A stretch of DNA of 45,920 nucleotides from an uncultured Gammaproteobacteria bacterium (GTDB lineage Bacteria; Patescibacteriota; Microgenomatia; Levybacterales; UBA12049), in contig CAYZZG010000001.1 in the NCBI GenBank assembly GCA_964482825.1, positions 63,754 through 109,673 on the forward strand. The letters run 5' to 3'. Positions 2,230 to 44,911 of the stretch are shown here, piece by piece. Made by a program: the position numbers and the translations under genes. The stretch's first letter is position 1, and the number at the start of each line of letters is the position of its first letter. Under the pieces are notes generated by a model that worked only from the letters and a program-made list of their open reading frames with translations, was not told the origin of the DNA and ran no database searches.

Positions 2230-2327
2230 TCCCACGCATCTTCCCGTTGCCTTCAGGTACTATCCGTCGAGCCAAGCTCGACTCGTACACGGTTTACGGA
2301 ACGATGCAGTAGGATAAGGGGTTTAGG

Positions 2328-2473: not shown

Positions 2474-3124
2474 ATGATTCATACATTAATAGGACAAAAG
2501 GTAGATCAAGTACAAGGGTTTCTGGAGAACGGAGTACGTATTCCTGTGACAAAAATTGCCATGTCGGGCAATACTGTTACTTTGCTTAAAACGCAAGAAA
2601 AGTCTGGATACAGTGCAATCCAGCTTGGATTTGGAACAAGAAAGAGGGCAAAAAAAACAAGCCCTCTTTTTTTGCGTGAAGTAAGAATAATTGATGGCGA
2701 GGTGCTCCTACAAGTAGGAGATGAGGTAAAACCATCTGATGTGTTTGAGCCAGGAGACATTATTGATGTTTCCGGAGTATCAAAAGGAAAAGGATATGCA
2801 GGTGGAGTAAAACGGTATCACTTTAAAGGAGGACCACGTACTCACGGACAATCAGATAGAGAAAGAGCACCAGGATCTATCGGCCAAACAACAACTCCGG
2901 GAAGAGTATATAAAGGTAAGCGCATGGCTGGAAATATGGGACATGTAAATGTAACGATAAAAAACTTGCAAGTAGTTGCAGTGCTTGATGATTATCTACT
3001 GGTTAGAGGTCTTATTCCAGGCCCAAAAAATAGCATAGTAACGGTGATAAAGAGAGGAAAAAATAAAAAATTTGTGCCTCTTTATCAAGAGGCGGAGAAG
3101 GAGGAAGAAAAGAATGCCAGCTAA
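2474..3124 (+). CDS. rplC: 50S ribosomal protein L3
   Basis: 216 aa, GKGYAGGVKRYHFKGGPRTHGQS motif, operon position. Confidence 0.95.
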   Translation: MIHTLIGQKVDQVQGFLENGVRIPVTKIAMSGNTVTLLKTQEKSGYSAIQLGFGTRKRAKKTSPLFLREVRIIDGEVLLQVGDEVKPSDVFEPGDIIDVSGVSKGKGYAGGVKRYHFKGGPRTHGQSDRERAPGSIGQTTTPGRVYKGKRMAGNMGHVNVTIKNLQVVAVLDDYLLVRGLIPGPKNSIVTVIKRGKNKKFVPLYQEAEKEEEKNAS

Positions 3125-3917
3125 AGAAGTTAAAAGTTCCCAGTTCGTTCTGCTGAGCAGAACTTCGAGGGGCAAGCAAAAGTTAAAAGTTAAAAGTTCA
3201 ACTAAAAAATCAAAAGTTACAAAGGCAGAAGTAGCATCATCTGTTAAAACATCAAAGACTGGATTGACGGTTGATCTTTTTGATGTAAAAGGAAAGGTTA
3301 CGGGTACGATTGATTTACCTAAAGAGATTTTCGCTGTACCTGTTAATGAAAAACTTATGATACAGGCTGTACGAGTGTATTTGGCAAATCAGCATAGAGG
3401 AACTGTCTCAACAAAAACACGCGGAGAAGTGCAGGGGTCAACACGAAAAATATATAGACAAAAGGGTACCGGGCGAGCAAGACATGGTTCGCTTCGAGCG
3501 CCAATTTTTGTTCATGGAGGAATAGTATTTGGTCCAAAGCCCCGAGATTATTCTCTTACTTTGCCTAAAGCCATGAGGCGTTTAGCTCTCTTTTCTGCGC
3601 TGTCAACACAAGTTAAAGCTGGAGCAGTAAAAATAGTTGGGGACATAGAGAAAATTGAGCCAAAAACAAAGGCAATGGCCAATTTTATGAAACAAATTGG
3701 TATTCCTGAAAAGAAGAAAAACGTTTTACTCGTTTTGCCAAAAACAGAAAAAGGTAAAGGAGATAGTATTATGCGAGCAGCAAGAAATATAGAAGGAGTA
3801 GATATCACCTTTGCAAATCAACTACATACCTACGCAGTAATGAAGCATAAAACGCTTCTTTTTAGTTTAGATGCAATTGATTCAATACGTACAGTATTTG
3901 CAAAAGAAACAAAATAA
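3114..3917 (+). CDS. rplD: 50S ribosomal protein L4. Start ambiguous: ATG 3114 gives a ~50-aa repeat-encoded extension, in-frame TTG 3264 gives a canonical N-terminus
   Basis: RQKGTGRARHGS motif. AAGGAGG lies 9 nt before ATG 3114. The 3072 start in the ORF track lies inside rplC. Confidence 0.88.
   Translation: MPAKEVKSSQFVLLSRTSRGKQKLKVKSSTKKSKVTKAEVASSVKTSKTGLTVDLFDVKGKVTGTIDLPKEIFAVPVNEKLMIQAVRVYLANQHRGTVSTKTRGEVQGSTRKIYRQKGTGRARHGSLRAPIFVHGGIVFGPKPRDYSLTLPKAMRRLALFSALSTQVKAGAVKIVGDIEKIEPKTKAMANFMKQIGIPEKKKNVLLVLPKTEKGKGDSIMRAARNIEGVDITFANQLHTYAVMKHKTLLFSLDAIDSIRTVFAKETK
3125..3224 (+). repeat. A-rich heptamer (AAAAGTT) arms flanking a GC-richer hairpin core (GTTCTGC-tga-GCAGAAC, 3147-3163)
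   Basis: Direct reading. Same arm/core architecture as 18485-18600 and 44806-44911. Confidence 0.7.
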
Positions 3918-14870: not shown

Positions 14871-15362
14871 GTGAGAATAGCAGGTATTAATATACCCGAT
14901 GAAAAAAGAGTAGATATAGCGCTAACATATTTGTATGGCGTTGGTAGAAGTAATGTGGTGACAATATTAAAAAAGGCAGATGTTGAGGCAGCAAAAAGAG
15001 TAAAAACGTTGTCTGAGGATGAACAAAAACGAATTCAAAAAATACTTGAAAACTTTAAAATAGAAGGAGATTTGCGCGCTGAAGTTTTGGGTAATATTAA
15101 GCGATTAAAAGAGCTTGGAACCTACCGCGGAACAAGACATAACAGAAACCTTCCTGTCCGTGGACAAAGGACCAGGTCTAATGCTCGTACAAAACGTGGT
15201 AAGAGAGTAACAATTGGTGCTATCAAAAAAGAAGTGGCGGCAAAAATGGGTATTGATACCCGTTCGGCAGGCTCAGGGCAGGCCCGTTCGGCGGGTTCGA
15301 CAAGCTCACCGCAAGCAGGCTCAGGGCAGGCAAAAGCGACTGTAGCCCCAGAAAAGAAATAA
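14871..15362 (+). CDS. rpsM: 30S ribosomal protein S13 with ~40-aa C-terminal extension
   Basis: GTG start, RIAGINIPDEKRV..., GGAAGGAG upstream. Confidence 0.95.
   Translation: MRIAGINIPDEKRVDIALTYLYGVGRSNVVTILKKADVEAAKRVKTLSEDEQKRIQKILENFKIEGDLRAEVLGNIKRLKELGTYRGTRHNRNLPVRGQRTRSNARTKRGKRVTIGAIKKEVAAKMGIDTRSAGSGQARSAGSTSSPQAGSGQAKATVAPEKK
15259..15331 (+). repeat. GC-rich repeat core inside the rpsM 3' extension
   Basis: CCCGTTCGGC twice (15259-15268, 15283-15292). Exact 16-nt CAGGCTCAGGGCAGGC twice (15268-15283, 15316-15331). Confidence 0.85.
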
Positions 15363-17419: not shown

Positions 17420-17527
17420 AAATTCGAATTTCGAAATCCGAAACAAAGCCAAAATTCGAATGTTCAAATGATGAGAATTTATGTCATTTGAATTTGTTTC
17501 GAGTTTCGTGCTTCGGGTTTCGAATTT
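17420..17527 (+). repeat. ~108-nt hairpin built from ATTCGAA/TTTCGAA repeats (rpoA-rplQ spacer)
   Basis: AAATTCGAA 17420-17428 / TTCGAATTT 17519-17527 (9/9). TTCAAATGA 17463-17471 / TCATTTGAA 17484-17492 (9/9). Intermediate arms pair partly. Confidence 0.75.
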
Positions 17528-17535
17528 TTTGTACT

Positions 17536-18084
17536 ATGAAGAAAAATGTTTTTGGTAGACGATTTAAACGAGACACAAATGAAAGAAAAGCGCTTTTTAA
17601 GGGGCTTATGTCATCATTGGTACTTAAGGAGCGGATTAAGACCACAGAAGAAAAAGCAAAATCTATTAGAGGACAGGTTGAGAAACTTGTTACCAAGGTA
17701 ATGAAAAAAAATAGTGAATCATTAAGTTCTTCTCTGGGAAAATATCTTACTCCCCCTGCCATGCAAAAAATGATTGCCGAGATTGGACCTCGTTTTAAAG
17801 ATCGTAATGGTGGATACACCAGAATTATTCATATGGGTAATCGTTTTTCTGATAATGCTTCTATGGTAATTATGGAATGGGTGGAAGGAGAGGAAATTAA
17901 AAATGAAAAATTAAAAATGAAAAATTTAGAAATACAAGTTGAGAAAAAAAGCGAAGAAGATACAGTAAAAATGCAAAACGTTCAGAAAGCAAGAAAAGGA
18001 GTCAAGATAATCTCAAAAAAATTAACAGAAAAAATAAAAGAAACCGCGTCAAACGCGGCTGAGGCAAAGGAGAAAAAAAAGTAA
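17536..18084 (+). CDS. rplQ: 50S ribosomal protein L17 with Lys/Glu-rich C-terminal extension
   Basis: MKKNVFGRRFKRDTNERKALFKGL from ATG 17536. The track start 17488 lies inside the hairpin. Confidence 0.9.
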   Translation: MKKNVFGRRFKRDTNERKALFKGLMSSLVLKERIKTTEEKAKSIRGQVEKLVTKVMKKNSESLSSSLGKYLTPPAMQKMIAEIGPRFKDRNGGYTRIIHMGNRFSDNASMVIMEWVEGEEIKNEKLKMKNLEIQVEKKSEEDTVKMQNVQKARKGVKIISKKLTEKIKETASNAAEAKEKKK

Positions 18085-18085
18085 T

Positions 18086-18544
18086 ATGACAAAAGCAACA
18101 AAGCAGTCGGATATCAAAAGAGCATGGCACCTGATTAATCTTAAGGGAAAAATATTAGGCAGAAGTTCTACAGAAATAGCAAACTTACTTATGGGGAAGG
18201 CAAAGCCATATTTTATGAGAAACCTTGATTGTGGAGATTATGTTGTGATTATTAATGCAAAGCACGTTTCTGTTTCCGGAAAAAAAGAAGAAAAGAAACA
18301 ATACTTTCGATATTCTGGATATCCGGGTGGTCTTAGATCAGAAACATTAGGGCAACTACGTGAGCGAAAACCCGAAGAAGTTGTGAAACATGCTGTAAAA
18401 GGCATGTTGCCGCAAAATAAATTACGCGCTACAATGCTAAAGCGATTGTTGATTTTTGCGGAAGAACAATATCCTTATGAAGAAAAACTCAAAAGTCAAA
18501 GTTCAACCCTTCGACTTCACCCAGGGCGAGAAGTCAAAAGTTGA
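18086..18544 (+). CDS. rplM: 50S ribosomal protein L13
   Basis: 152 aa, WHLINLKGKILGR...YSGYPGG. Confidence 0.95.
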   Translation: MTKATKQSDIKRAWHLINLKGKILGRSSTEIANLLMGKAKPYFMRNLDCGDYVVIINAKHVSVSGKKEEKKQYFRYSGYPGGLRSETLGQLRERKPEEVVKHAVKGMLPQNKLRATMLKRLLIFAEEQYPYEEKLKSQSSTLRLHPGREVKS

Positions 18545-44805: not shown

Positions 44806-44911
44806 AAGTCAAAAGGCAAAGGTCAAAATTACTCGCCTCGCGGCCAGCCTCGCCGAGTCTAGGCGGGCGAAGCGGGCAATGCAAAAGTAAAAAGTTTTCA
44901 AAATTTTGATT
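44806..44911. repeat. composite module: A-rich arm, GC-rich core (44831-44876), A-rich arm
   Basis: caaaagtcaaaaggcaaaggtcaaaatta + ctcgcctcgcggccagcctcgccgagtctaggcgggcgaagcgggc + aatgcaaaagtaaaaagtt. 44875-44894 is the reverse complement of 18547-18566. Confidence 0.75.

What the first reader, a model, noticed from the sequence alone, without database searches (positions are those of the whole stretch)
15259..15331. GC-rich cores embedded in the AT-rich modules share words and are translated as protein termini
Seen: GC-rich blocks interrupt A-rich arms at several sites. These are 3140-3175 (cccagttcgttctgctgagcagaacttcgaggggc), 15259-15331 (two 10-nt and two exact 16-nt direct repeats), 18507-18532 (cccttcgacttcacccagggcgagaag) and 44831-44876. 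The block at 2236-2307 may belong too. They share the words TTCGAC, CAAGCTC/TCACC and CAGGGC. For example, ttcgacaagctcacc in rpsM compares with ttcgacttcaccc in rplM. In rpsM the block encodes SAGSGQARSAGSTSSPQAGSGQA, in rplM it encodes STLRLHPGRE, and in rplD (if ATG 3114 is used) SQFVLLSRTSRGK. Inference: a GC-rich mini-element that rides within the simple-repeat arms and has been absorbed into the 5' or 3' ends of essential genes.
Basis: partly seen in the sequence, partly recalled or inferred. Interest (0 to 1): 0.6.

Follow-up and report, generated by a model that had tools for sequence, protein, structure and literature searches.

The report
Tiny 24-base repeat inside ribosomal genes
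The GC-rich stretch at the end of the ribosomal protein S13 gene is three copies of a 24-base repeat, one nested inside another, that also occurs almost letter for letter in many bacterial phyla. It has been inserted in frame into this and at least a dozen other essential genes of this tiny-genome (Levybacteria) bacterium, where it appears to be read as a harmless floppy peptide.

Summary

**What the rpsM block is.** It parses exactly as a 24-nt unit (15259-15282) followed by the same unit carrying a second 24-nt unit nested in its centre (15283-15330, nested part 15293-15316).

**Evidence for insertion.**
- The closest S13 genes carry one unit at the same codon. More distant relatives carry none, giving a 0/1/3-unit series.
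- The unit, CCC(G)TTCG-N(3-14)-CTCAGGGCA(A/G)GC, has 20-23 copies in this 978-kb genome against 0-1 in controls.
- Copies sit in frame in bipA, guaB, leuS, alaS, infB, recJ, rho, folA and others.
- The core 21-mer occurs exactly in at least 120 genome stretches from more than 15 phyla and in 23 viral contigs.
- All 13 genic copies here are in sense orientation, and most are read in the Ser/Gly/Gln/Ala frame.

**The other four sites.** The rplM block is a diverged member. 3140-3175 and 2236-2307 are singletons. 44831-44876 belongs to another GC-core family.

**Interpretation.** This is a very small REP/SDR/RPE-like dispersed repeat, tolerated and translated in loops and tails. The copying enzyme is unknown. 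RAYT-like genes are present, but their link to this repeat is unproven.

The parts
14871..15362 (+). rpsM (ribosomal protein S13), 163 aa instead of about 129-145 aa in relatives
   Evidence: ORF and translation. Pfam PF00416 for its cluster. Homology to solved S13 structures ends at residue 120.
15259..15282 (+). Unit 1 of the 24-nt repeat: CCCGTTCGGC-AGG-CTCAGGGCAGG, read as (T)RSAGSGQA
   Evidence: 22/24 identical to the single unit at the same codon in the two closest S13 genes (L170, L171).
15283..15330 (+). Unit 2: an identical copy of unit 1 split by a nested unit
   Evidence: Removing 15293-15316 from this 48-nt piece gives unit 1 exactly. The 48-nt composite is 38/42 identical to part of the bipA insert.
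15293..15316 (+). Nested 24-nt unit GGGTTCGACAAGCTCACCGCAAGC, lying between the left half and the spacer of unit 2
   Evidence: 19/24 identical to the cross-phylum consensus CCCTTCGACAAGCTCAGGGCAAGC. The same left-left-loop-right-right layout occurs in bipA, guaB, folA and in other phyla.
18086..18544 (+). rplM (L13), with a 14-aa tail SSTLRLHPGREVKS not found in relatives
   Evidence: Four relatives end at ..EEKLKTQ / ..GDKIK / ..KISPKS.
18507..18533 (+). Diverged member of the same family (CCCTTCGAC-TTCAC-CCAGGG-CGAGAAG), between arms AAAACTCAAAAGTCAAAGTTCAA (18484-18506) and TCAAAAGTTGA (18534-18544, which supplies the stop codon)
   Evidence: Fits the family pattern. No significant BLAST partner. 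The arms share a 7-mer.
3140..3175 (+). Separate GC core in the N-terminal tail of rplD: a 7-bp hairpin GTTCTGC-TGA-GCAGAAC inside CCC...GGG. Not shown to belong to the family.
   Evidence: Single copy in the genome. Predicted fold -13 kcal/mol. L4 N-tails differ in every relative, and G002 has the true family core (PIRQAQGKR) there.
44831..44876 (+). Intergenic GC core of a different family (ACTCGCCTCGC...GGCGAAGCGGGCAA) between TCAAAAG-type arms
   Evidence: Matches C25, C29, C31 and C14 but none of the rpsM-type copies.
2236..2307 (+). GC-richer block in the rpsJ-rplC spacer; not part of the family
   Evidence: No other copy in the genome. No Rfam match even at E<=1.

Best explanation
The block is DNA of a very small dispersed repeat. 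The unit is 24 nt (8 codons), with consensus CCC-TTCGAC-AAG-CTCAGGGCA(A/G)GC: a left half, a 3-nt spacer and a right half.

Proposed history in S13:
1. One unit was copied into the Lys-rich C-terminal tail of S13, between codons GAT-ACx and AAA-GCx, in an ancestor shared with the two closest known relatives.
2. In this lineage the unit was duplicated head to tail.
3. The second copy then received a further unit in its own centre, or was replaced by such a composite, which also exists in bipA.

Why copies can persist in genes:
- The unit is 24 nt long and has no stop codon in any of its three sense frames. An insertion therefore keeps a gene open.
- Copies persist in genes only where the extra 8-24 residues are harmless (tails, loops, linkers), in sense orientation, and mostly in the frame that reads small polar residues (..STSSGQA..).
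- The inserts are therefore most likely transcribed and translated as disordered peptide.
- They are passengers, not functional parts of the proteins.

Shown: family membership, presence/absence at orthologous sites, nesting, cross-phylum identity, and orientation and frame bias.

Inferred: translation, neutrality, and the copying mechanism. That mechanism is unknown. The candidates are single-strand HUH/Y1 (RAYT-like) enzymes or template switching during replication.
For: **Parsing.** The exact parse is unit1 + unit1 with a 24-nt insert.

**Orthologous sites.**
- S13: G007, G011 and the P0008 contig have no unit. P0005 and P0006 have one (CCCATTCGACAGGCTCAGGGCAGGC). This genome has three.
- bipA: four relatives have no insert. 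G002 has the same outer shell (TGGAA|CCCTTCGAC ... GGCAAGC|GAC) but different inner units.
- PDB homologues show clean 18-aa (BipA) and 12-aa (IMPDH) gaps at the insert positions.

**Copy number and spread.**
- 20-23 copies here, against 0-1 in controls.
- Present in 35 of the 41 genomes searched (this genome plus 40 relatives), with almost no reversed-pattern hits.
- The strict full unit is in 30 of 301 Patescibacteria genomes, with zero control hits.
- The exact 21-mer is in at least 120 genome stretches from more than 15 phyla, where about 0.5 is expected from database size, and in 23 viral contigs.

**Host genes.** Pfam confirms LeuRS, AlaRS, IF-2, RecJ, GT1, FemAB, DHFR, Rho and transketolase.

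**Bias.**
- Genic copies: 13 sense, 0 antisense (p=2.4e-4).
- Frames: 10 SGQA, 2 LRA, 1 QGK (p=0.004).
- Intergenic copies point both ways.
Against: - No direct evidence of translation.
- The unit folds weakly: -2.7 to -3.8 kcal/mol as RNA, with only a 4-bp CCCT/AGGG stem. It is not a classical palindromic REP.
- No target-site duplication or terminal inverted repeats were seen.
- No enzyme is tied to it. The five Y1_Tnp genes here are bracketed by other hairpin families. Only 1 of 120 cross-phylum loci has a Y1 gene nearby.
- The extreme sequence constancy across phyla is hard to explain for neutral junk and hints at recognition by something conserved.
Confidence: 0.72

Rival explanations
1. 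REP-RAYT system: the unit is a REP-type element cut and pasted as single-stranded DNA by the genome's Y1 (HUH) RAYT-like transposases.
For: - This 978-kb genome has five Y1_Tnp genes above the Pfam cut-off.
- Across the 41 genomes searched (this genome plus 40 relatives), unit copy number rises with Y1 gene count: Spearman 0.58, p=7e-5; Mann-Whitney p=0.001. This is not corrected for phylogeny.
- On the bottom strand the unit can form CCCT-GA-G / C-GA-AGGG with tandem G.A pairs.
Against: - The Y1 genes are flanked by other hairpins (CACCTCGTAGG, AAGGTCGCACCTT, AGGACAGTCCTT, and others), some of which are dispersed families in their own right.
- G014, G030 and G040 have 9-13 units and no Y1 gene.
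- Only 1 of 120 cross-phylum loci has a Y1 gene within 8 kb.
- There is no GTAG or CGTC tag and no 5-13-bp stem as defined by Di Nocera et al. 2013. The predicted fold is weak.
Confidence: 0.2
2. Functional nucleic-acid motif: the 24-nt word is a conserved binding site or RNA signal kept by selection. The genic copies would then be by-products or regulators.
For: - Letter-for-letter conservation of a 21-mer across more than 15 phyla and in phage contigs.
- In other phyla its immediate flanks form an inverted repeat of at least 6 bp in 20% of cases, against 3.7% at random sites.
- One copy lies inside an RNase P RNA gene in a Nealsonbacteria locus.
Against: - Presence or absence differs between close relatives at the same codon.
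- Distribution is patchy: 10% of sampled Patescibacteria genomes.
- No consistent gene neighbourhood.
- No Rfam family.
- Weak fold.
- Copy number differs widely between sister genera.
Confidence: 0.12
3. Ordinary low-complexity tail: the S/G/Q/A-rich stretch grew by local slippage in a disordered tail, with no dispersed element involved.
For: - S13, L13 and L4 tails in this family are naturally variable in length and sequence.
- Unit 1 and unit 2 are a local tandem duplication.
Against: - The same 24-48-nt sequence occurs in unrelated genes and spacers of this genome and in other phyla.
- It is GC-rich in a 39% GC genome.
Confidence: 0.03
4. The inserts are not translated: they are bypassed by the ribosome or removed from the mRNA, as with the byp elements of Magnusiomyces mitochondria.
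For: GC-rich mini-inserts in an AT-rich genome recall mobile GC clusters and byps (from my own knowledge of Lang et al. 2014 PNAS; not checked here).
Against: - Every genic copy keeps the frame and has no stop.
- Frame use is biased towards benign residues and orientation is always sense.
- Inserts sit at loops, linkers and tails.
- These are constraints expected only if the insert is translated.
Confidence: 0.03

Closest known systems
Small dispersed repeats SDR1-8 of Nostoc/Anabaena (Elhai et al. 2008, Genome Res 18:1484; paper not held, features recalled from memory; cited in PMC5861425 and PMC3116915)
   Same: - Unit size of 21-27 nt.
- Many dispersed copies.
- Absent from orthologous sites in relatives.
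- Found inside other repeats and next to tandem heptamer repeats.
- No transposase known.
   Different: - SDRs were reported only in Nostocaceae. This unit spans more than 15 phyla and phage contigs.
- Sequence identity to any SDR could not be checked.
- Here many copies are in frame inside essential genes.
Rickettsia palindromic elements (RPE; Ogata et al. 2000, as summarised in PMC3733652)
   Same: Selfish repeats inserted in frame into functional protein-coding genes, encoding extra surface peptide.
   Different: RPE-1 elements are longer palindromic inserts restricted to Rickettsia. RPE-4 and RPE-6 are CGTC-type REPs. This unit is 24 nt, barely palindromic and cross-phylum.
GTAG- and CGTC-tagged REPs, including intragenic REPs (Di Nocera, De Gregorio, Rocco 2013, PMC3733652)
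   Same: - Short GC-rich repeats, mostly intergenic.
- Sometimes inside genes at termini or flexible loops.
- Occur as single units, dimers and clusters.
- CGTC REPs lack a dedicated transposase.
   Different: - The defining tag and the 8-9-bp stem with a 4-5-nt loop are absent.
- A different family in this genome (TGTCATTCTGAGC.../GTCATCCTGAA...) looks closer to the CGTC type.
Cyanobacterial STRR heptanucleotide arrays and mobile GC clusters of yeast mitochondrial DNA (from my own knowledge)
   Same: AT-rich genome, tandem 7-mers, and GC-rich mini-inserts that can lie inside genes and structural RNAs.
   Different: Different sequences and hosts. No evidence of shared machinery.

Membership tests
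Small dispersed repeats (SDR, Elhai 2008) | Unit of about 21-27 nt present in many dispersed copies | tested here: met
   24-nt unit; 20-23 copies against 0-1 in controls.
Small dispersed repeats (SDR, Elhai 2008) | Insertions absent from orthologous sites of related genomes | tested here: met
   S13 shows a 0/1/3-unit series. bipA is empty in four relatives.
Small dispersed repeats (SDR, Elhai 2008) | Sequence identity to one of SDR1-8, and occurrence in Nostocaceae | not testable with these tools
   The paper and its sequences are not held. A later paper says no SDR-like repeat was found outside Nostocaceae.
REP (GTAG/CGTC super-families, Di Nocera 2013) | Palindrome with a 5-13-bp (CGTC type: 8-9-bp) stem and a short loop | tested here: not met
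   Best fold is a 4-bp CCCT/AGGG stem with an 11-nt loop, -2.7 to -3.8 kcal/mol.
REP (GTAG/CGTC super-families, Di Nocera 2013) | Unpaired GTAG or CGTC (TGTC/CCTC) tag at one end, and a CCA-like tail | tested here: not met
   The consensus CCCTTCGACAAGCTCAGGGCAAGC has neither.
REP (GTAG/CGTC super-families, Di Nocera 2013) | Association with a RAYT (Y1) transposase | tested here: inconclusive
   Five Y1 genes and a copy-number correlation of rho 0.58. However, the Y1 genes are flanked by other hairpins, and 1 of 120 loci has a Y1 gene nearby.
Rickettsia palindromic elements (RPE) | In-frame insertion in functional ORFs | tested here: met
   At least 13 host genes remain open and keep their Pfam domains.
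Rickettsia palindromic elements (RPE) | Long palindromic element confined to Rickettsia | tested here: not met
   24-nt unit, weak palindrome, found in more than 15 phyla.
MITE | Terminal inverted repeats of 15-30 bp, target-site duplication, 70-300 bp | tested here: not met
   No terminal inverted repeats. The filled versus empty S13 and bipA sites show no duplication beyond a 1-2-nt ambiguity.

The most novel reading that the evidence does not exclude
The 24-nt unit may be one of the smallest self-propagating DNA modules known. It is shared nearly unchanged by more than 15 bacterial phyla and their phages. It is coding-compatible by construction: 8 codons, no sense-frame stop, and benign peptides. 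It preferentially lands in its own centre, giving nested left-left-loop-right-right stacks, in hairpin loops and in heptamer arrays. On this reading it is moved by a conserved host or HUH-type single-strand activity rather than by an element-encoded enzyme, and it continually remodels loops and tails of essential proteins in small-genome bacteria.
Probability: 0.3. Interest if true: 0.85.

Novelty: new variant of a known kind. Interest (0 to 1): 0.6.

Why it matters
- **Protein evolution in minimal genomes.** If correct, core proteins of minimal genomes (ribosomal proteins, tRNA synthetases, GTPases, Rho) are being lengthened stepwise by a mobile 8-codon cassette. That would be a source of new loops and tails, and a confounder for gene calling, alignments and phylogenies of CPR bacteria.
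- **An open puzzle.** The near-identity of a 21-24-nt non-coding word across phyla and phages is unexplained. Literal sequence and peptide strings found no paper in the searchable library. This makes the mechanism of "very small mobile repeats" directly testable.
- **S13 specifically.** The insert lies about 10 residues beyond the point where the Thermus and E. coli proteins end. From published ribosome structures, that tail reaches towards the P-site tRNA. A 24-residue floppy addition there is notable, but it is probably tolerated because the tail is dispensable in E. coli (my knowledge of Hoang, Fredrick and Noller 2004; not checked here).

Tried and rejected
- **Sequencing runs.** I could not do read-level tests for allele polymorphism or transcription.
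- **Elhai 2008.** The paper is not held. The SDR comparison rests on memory and on two citing papers.
- **Rfam.**
  - No hit in the window at gathering score.
  - Nothing for the core in ten cross-phylum loci.
  - Nothing for 2200-2480.
- **Full-text search.** STSSGQA, FDKLRA, ACPELVE and the DNA word on both strands found 0 papers.
- **Hairpin idea.** Thermodynamic folds are weak on both strands. I do not claim a stable hairpin. The stems were fixed by my search patterns, so covariation could not be tested.
- **RAYT adjacency.** Rejected as a direct link.
- **Replication-strand bias as the cause of sense orientation.** Rejected because intergenic copies point both ways relative to neighbouring genes and GC skew.
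- **First tandem-arm detector.** It was too strict and I replaced it with a shared-7-mer test.
- **Two mistakes corrected.**
  - One search pattern wrongly required CCC+K+TTCG; I redid it.
  - One DNA alignment used the wrong strand for minus-strand loci; I redid it.
- **Loose regex hits.** C3:13418 and C27:4555 were treated as chance matches.

Full report
**1. Setting**

The window is a ribosomal-protein superoperon. It lies on contig C1 (63754-109673) of a 978-kb, 95-contig, 39% GC genome. The closest named S13 proteins are from Candidatus Levybacteria, Patescibacteria. The genome is dense in short tandem arrays: about 1,500 non-overlapping arrays at a permissive TRF score (1,762 before merging overlaps), with periods 6 and 7 dominating. 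It also holds several families of short GC-rich cores.

**2. The observation**

The long exact repeat is 17 nt, not 16: GCAGGCTCAGGGCAGGC at 15267 and 15315.
- The block lies inside rpsM (14871-15362) and encodes RSAGSGQARSAGSTSSPQAGSGQA.
- It parses exactly as follows.
  - Unit 1, 15259-15282: CCCGTTCGGC-AGG-CTCAGGGCAGG.
  - Unit 2, 15283-15330: identical to unit 1 once the 24 nt at 15293-15316 (GGGTTCGACAAGCTCACCGCAAGC) are removed.
They arise from a tandem duplication plus a nested copy of the same kind of unit.

**3. Is it a family?**

- TTCGACAAGCTC occurs 9 times in the genome.
- The pattern CCC(G/A)TTCG-N3-14-CTCAGGG occurs 20 times, or 23 in a looser form. It occurs 0 times in the reversed genome and 0-1 times in ten Markov-3 simulations.
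- By BLAST, the rpsM block matches inserts in bipA (38/42), guaB (33/38) and an intergenic copy on C7 (24/26).
  - The rplM block fits the pattern but is diverged.
  - 3140-3175 and 2236-2307 are single-copy.
  - 44831-44876 belongs to another family, ACTCGCCTCGC...GGCGAAGCGGG.

**4. Insertion, shown by orthologous sites**

*S13*
- In relatives, S13 ends ...AAKMGLDTKAETPTKTSDQGGKK...GIDSKTDSAPKAAAGGKK...GITTA and so on.
- Ours reads GIDT-[24 aa]-KATVAPEKK.
- The two closest S13 proteins in a 5.8-billion-protein collection have exactly one 8-codon unit at that codon: GIDT-HSTGSGQA-K.., with DNA CCCATTCGACAGGCTCAGGGCAGGC.
- This gives a 0/1/3-unit series.

*L13 and L4*
- L13 of four relatives stops at ..EEKLKTQ or similar. 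Ours runs on for 14 residues through the core and takes its stop codon from the right arm.
- L4 N-terminal tails differ in every relative. In G002 the tail holds a true family unit, PIRQAQGKR.

*bipA*
- Four relatives have an uninterrupted ..W(E/N)..TKINIIDTPGH.
- G000 has 54 extra bases and G002 has 48.
- The two share the same outer left and right halves but have different inner units. This again indicates growth from the centre.

*Solved structures*
- E. coli BipA shows a clean 18-residue gap at the insert position. Thermotoga IMPDH shows a clean 12-residue gap.

**5. Host genes and constraints**

- In-frame copies lie in IF-2, BipA, IMPDH, LeuRS, AlaRS, RecJ, a GT1 glycosyltransferase, a FemAB-type protein, DHFR, Rho, transketolase and others. 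All keep their Pfam domains.
- All 13 genic copies are in sense orientation (p=2.4e-4). Intergenic copies point either way relative to neighbouring genes and GC skew.
- Frame use is 10 (..S-G-Q-A): 2 (L-R-A): 1 (Q-G-K), p=0.004.
- The unit is 24 nt and has no stop codon in any sense frame. One of the three antisense frames has TGA.
- These are the marks of selection acting on a translated product. This is why I favour translation over bypass or excision, although translation was not observed directly.

**6. Beyond this genome**

| Search | Result |
|---|---|
| Hairpin-type pattern, this genome plus 40 relatives | 35 of 41 genomes, 0-45 copies each, almost no reversed-pattern control hits |
| Strict full unit, 301 evenly sampled Patescibacteria genomes | 30 genomes, control zero everywhere |
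| Same 21-mer, IMG/VR viral contigs | 23 contigs |

- The genome-collection stretches come from Acidobacteriota, Chloroflexota, Alpha- and Gammaproteobacteria, Verrucomicrobiota, Planctomycetota, Lentisphaerota, Bacteroidota, Chlamydiota, Gemmatimonadota, Saccharibacteria, Paceibacterota and others, including isolates. About 0.5 matches are expected from the collection size.
- In other phyla most copies are intergenic: 80 of 129 lie in no ORF of at least 200 aa.
- Their immediate flanks form an inverted repeat of at least 6 bp in 20% of cases, against 3.7% at random sites.
- The flanks share a 7-mer in 14% of cases, against 6% at random sites.
- Several copies sit in heptamer arrays (for example GTGACGA in a Chloroflexaceae MAG) or in nested left-left-left-loop-right-right-right stacks.
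- In this genome 6 of 17 copies have matching arms, against 6.7% of random sites (p=7e-4). The rpsM copy has none.

**7. Mechanism**

- The fold is weak: -2.7 kcal/mol for the sense strand and -3.8 for the antisense strand as RNA, with a 4-bp stem. The unit is therefore not a classical REP.
- It lacks the GTAG/CGTC tags and the stems defined by Di Nocera et al..
- The genome has five RAYT-like Y1 genes. Unit number correlates with Y1 gene number across the 41 genomes searched (rho 0.58, p=7e-5, uncorrected for phylogeny).
- Against a direct link:
  - Each Y1 gene is bracketed by a different hairpin family.
  - Three genomes have 9-13 units and no Y1 gene.
  - Only 1 of 120 cross-phylum loci has a Y1 gene nearby.
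- I conclude that units were copied in at the DNA level, head to tail and into their own centre. The enzyme remains open.

**8. Comparison and novelty**

- The closest described things are:
  - the 21-27-nt small dispersed repeats of Nostocaceae (Elhai 2008; from memory);
  - intragenic REPs and RPEs.
- The behaviour matches these. Membership in REP, RPE or MITE fails on defining features, and SDR identity could not be tested.
- Literal searches for the DNA word and its peptides found no paper.
- Earlier notes of this scan describe the same 24-nt module in other genomes. I treated them as leads only. What is added here:
  - the exact nested parse;
  - the 0/1/3-unit series in S13;
  - the shared-shell, different-core pair in bipA;
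  - the orientation and frame statistics;
  - the negative RAYT-adjacency tests.

**9. Verdict**

- The feature is real.
- The element is a cross-phylum 24-nt repeat tolerated in frame, not a module specific to gene ends.

Noticed in passing
window 18044-18058 (in the rplQ tail; rplQ ORF 17488-18084): The hairpin CCGCG-TCAAA-CGCGG is read as ..ETASNAAEAK.. in the C-terminal tail of L17. GCGTCAAACGC has 14 copies in the genome, several of them nested inside CACCTCGGAGG...CCATCCGAGGTG modules.
   Followed up: partly
G000 contigs C16:13627-14232, C8:17376-17996, and C25, C46, C53 (not in the window): There are five RAYT-like Y1_Tnp genes (201-224 aa) in a genome of about 1 Mb. Each is bracketed by its own small hairpin. 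Some of these hairpins (AAGGACAGTCCTT, CCACCTTAGAGGTGG) are dispersed families. This looks like several REP-RAYT pairs.
   Followed up: partly
G000 C3:11055-13007 (bipA): There is a second in-frame insert of 6 residues (TPASPA) relative to E. coli BipA. It appears to come from the palindromic CCGCCAGCTGGCGG family.
   Followed up: no
G000 C10 (transketolase), C37 (alaS), C36 (folA): The transketolase inter-domain linker reads SVILKTKSEESRTGSFPIRFAQGQDDIV, a GTCATCCTGAA...TTCAGGATGAC hairpin with the 24-nt-type core in its loop. AlaRS has VILKPKAEESRSFAASDAAQDD. The DHFR domain is split by a composite of about 50 aa made of heptamer arms plus a nested core.
   Followed up: partly
L093:3154-3521 (Candidatus Nealsonbacteria contig): The exact 21-mer core (3334-3354, + strand) lies inside a bacterial RNase P RNA gene on the minus strand (114.9 bits). 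This recalls the STRR inserts in cyanobacterial RNase P RNA.
   Followed up: no
window 32995-33448 (-): RNase P RNA is found only below threshold (36.5 bits against a gathering score of 100). It spans 454 nt for a 367-position model, so it may carry insertions.
   Followed up: no
window 3114-3260 (rplD N-terminus): L4 N-terminal tails differ in length and sequence in every relative examined (proteins of 226-274 aa in total). The tail looks like a recurrent landing site for different GC cores and heptamer arms.
   Followed up: partly
L182, L188, L177 (IMG/VR viral contigs): Viral contigs carry the same core next to GGCAGTA heptamer arrays or BoxC-like CCCTCCCC/GGGGAGGG hairpins. Phages are therefore possible carriers between hosts.
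   Followed up: no
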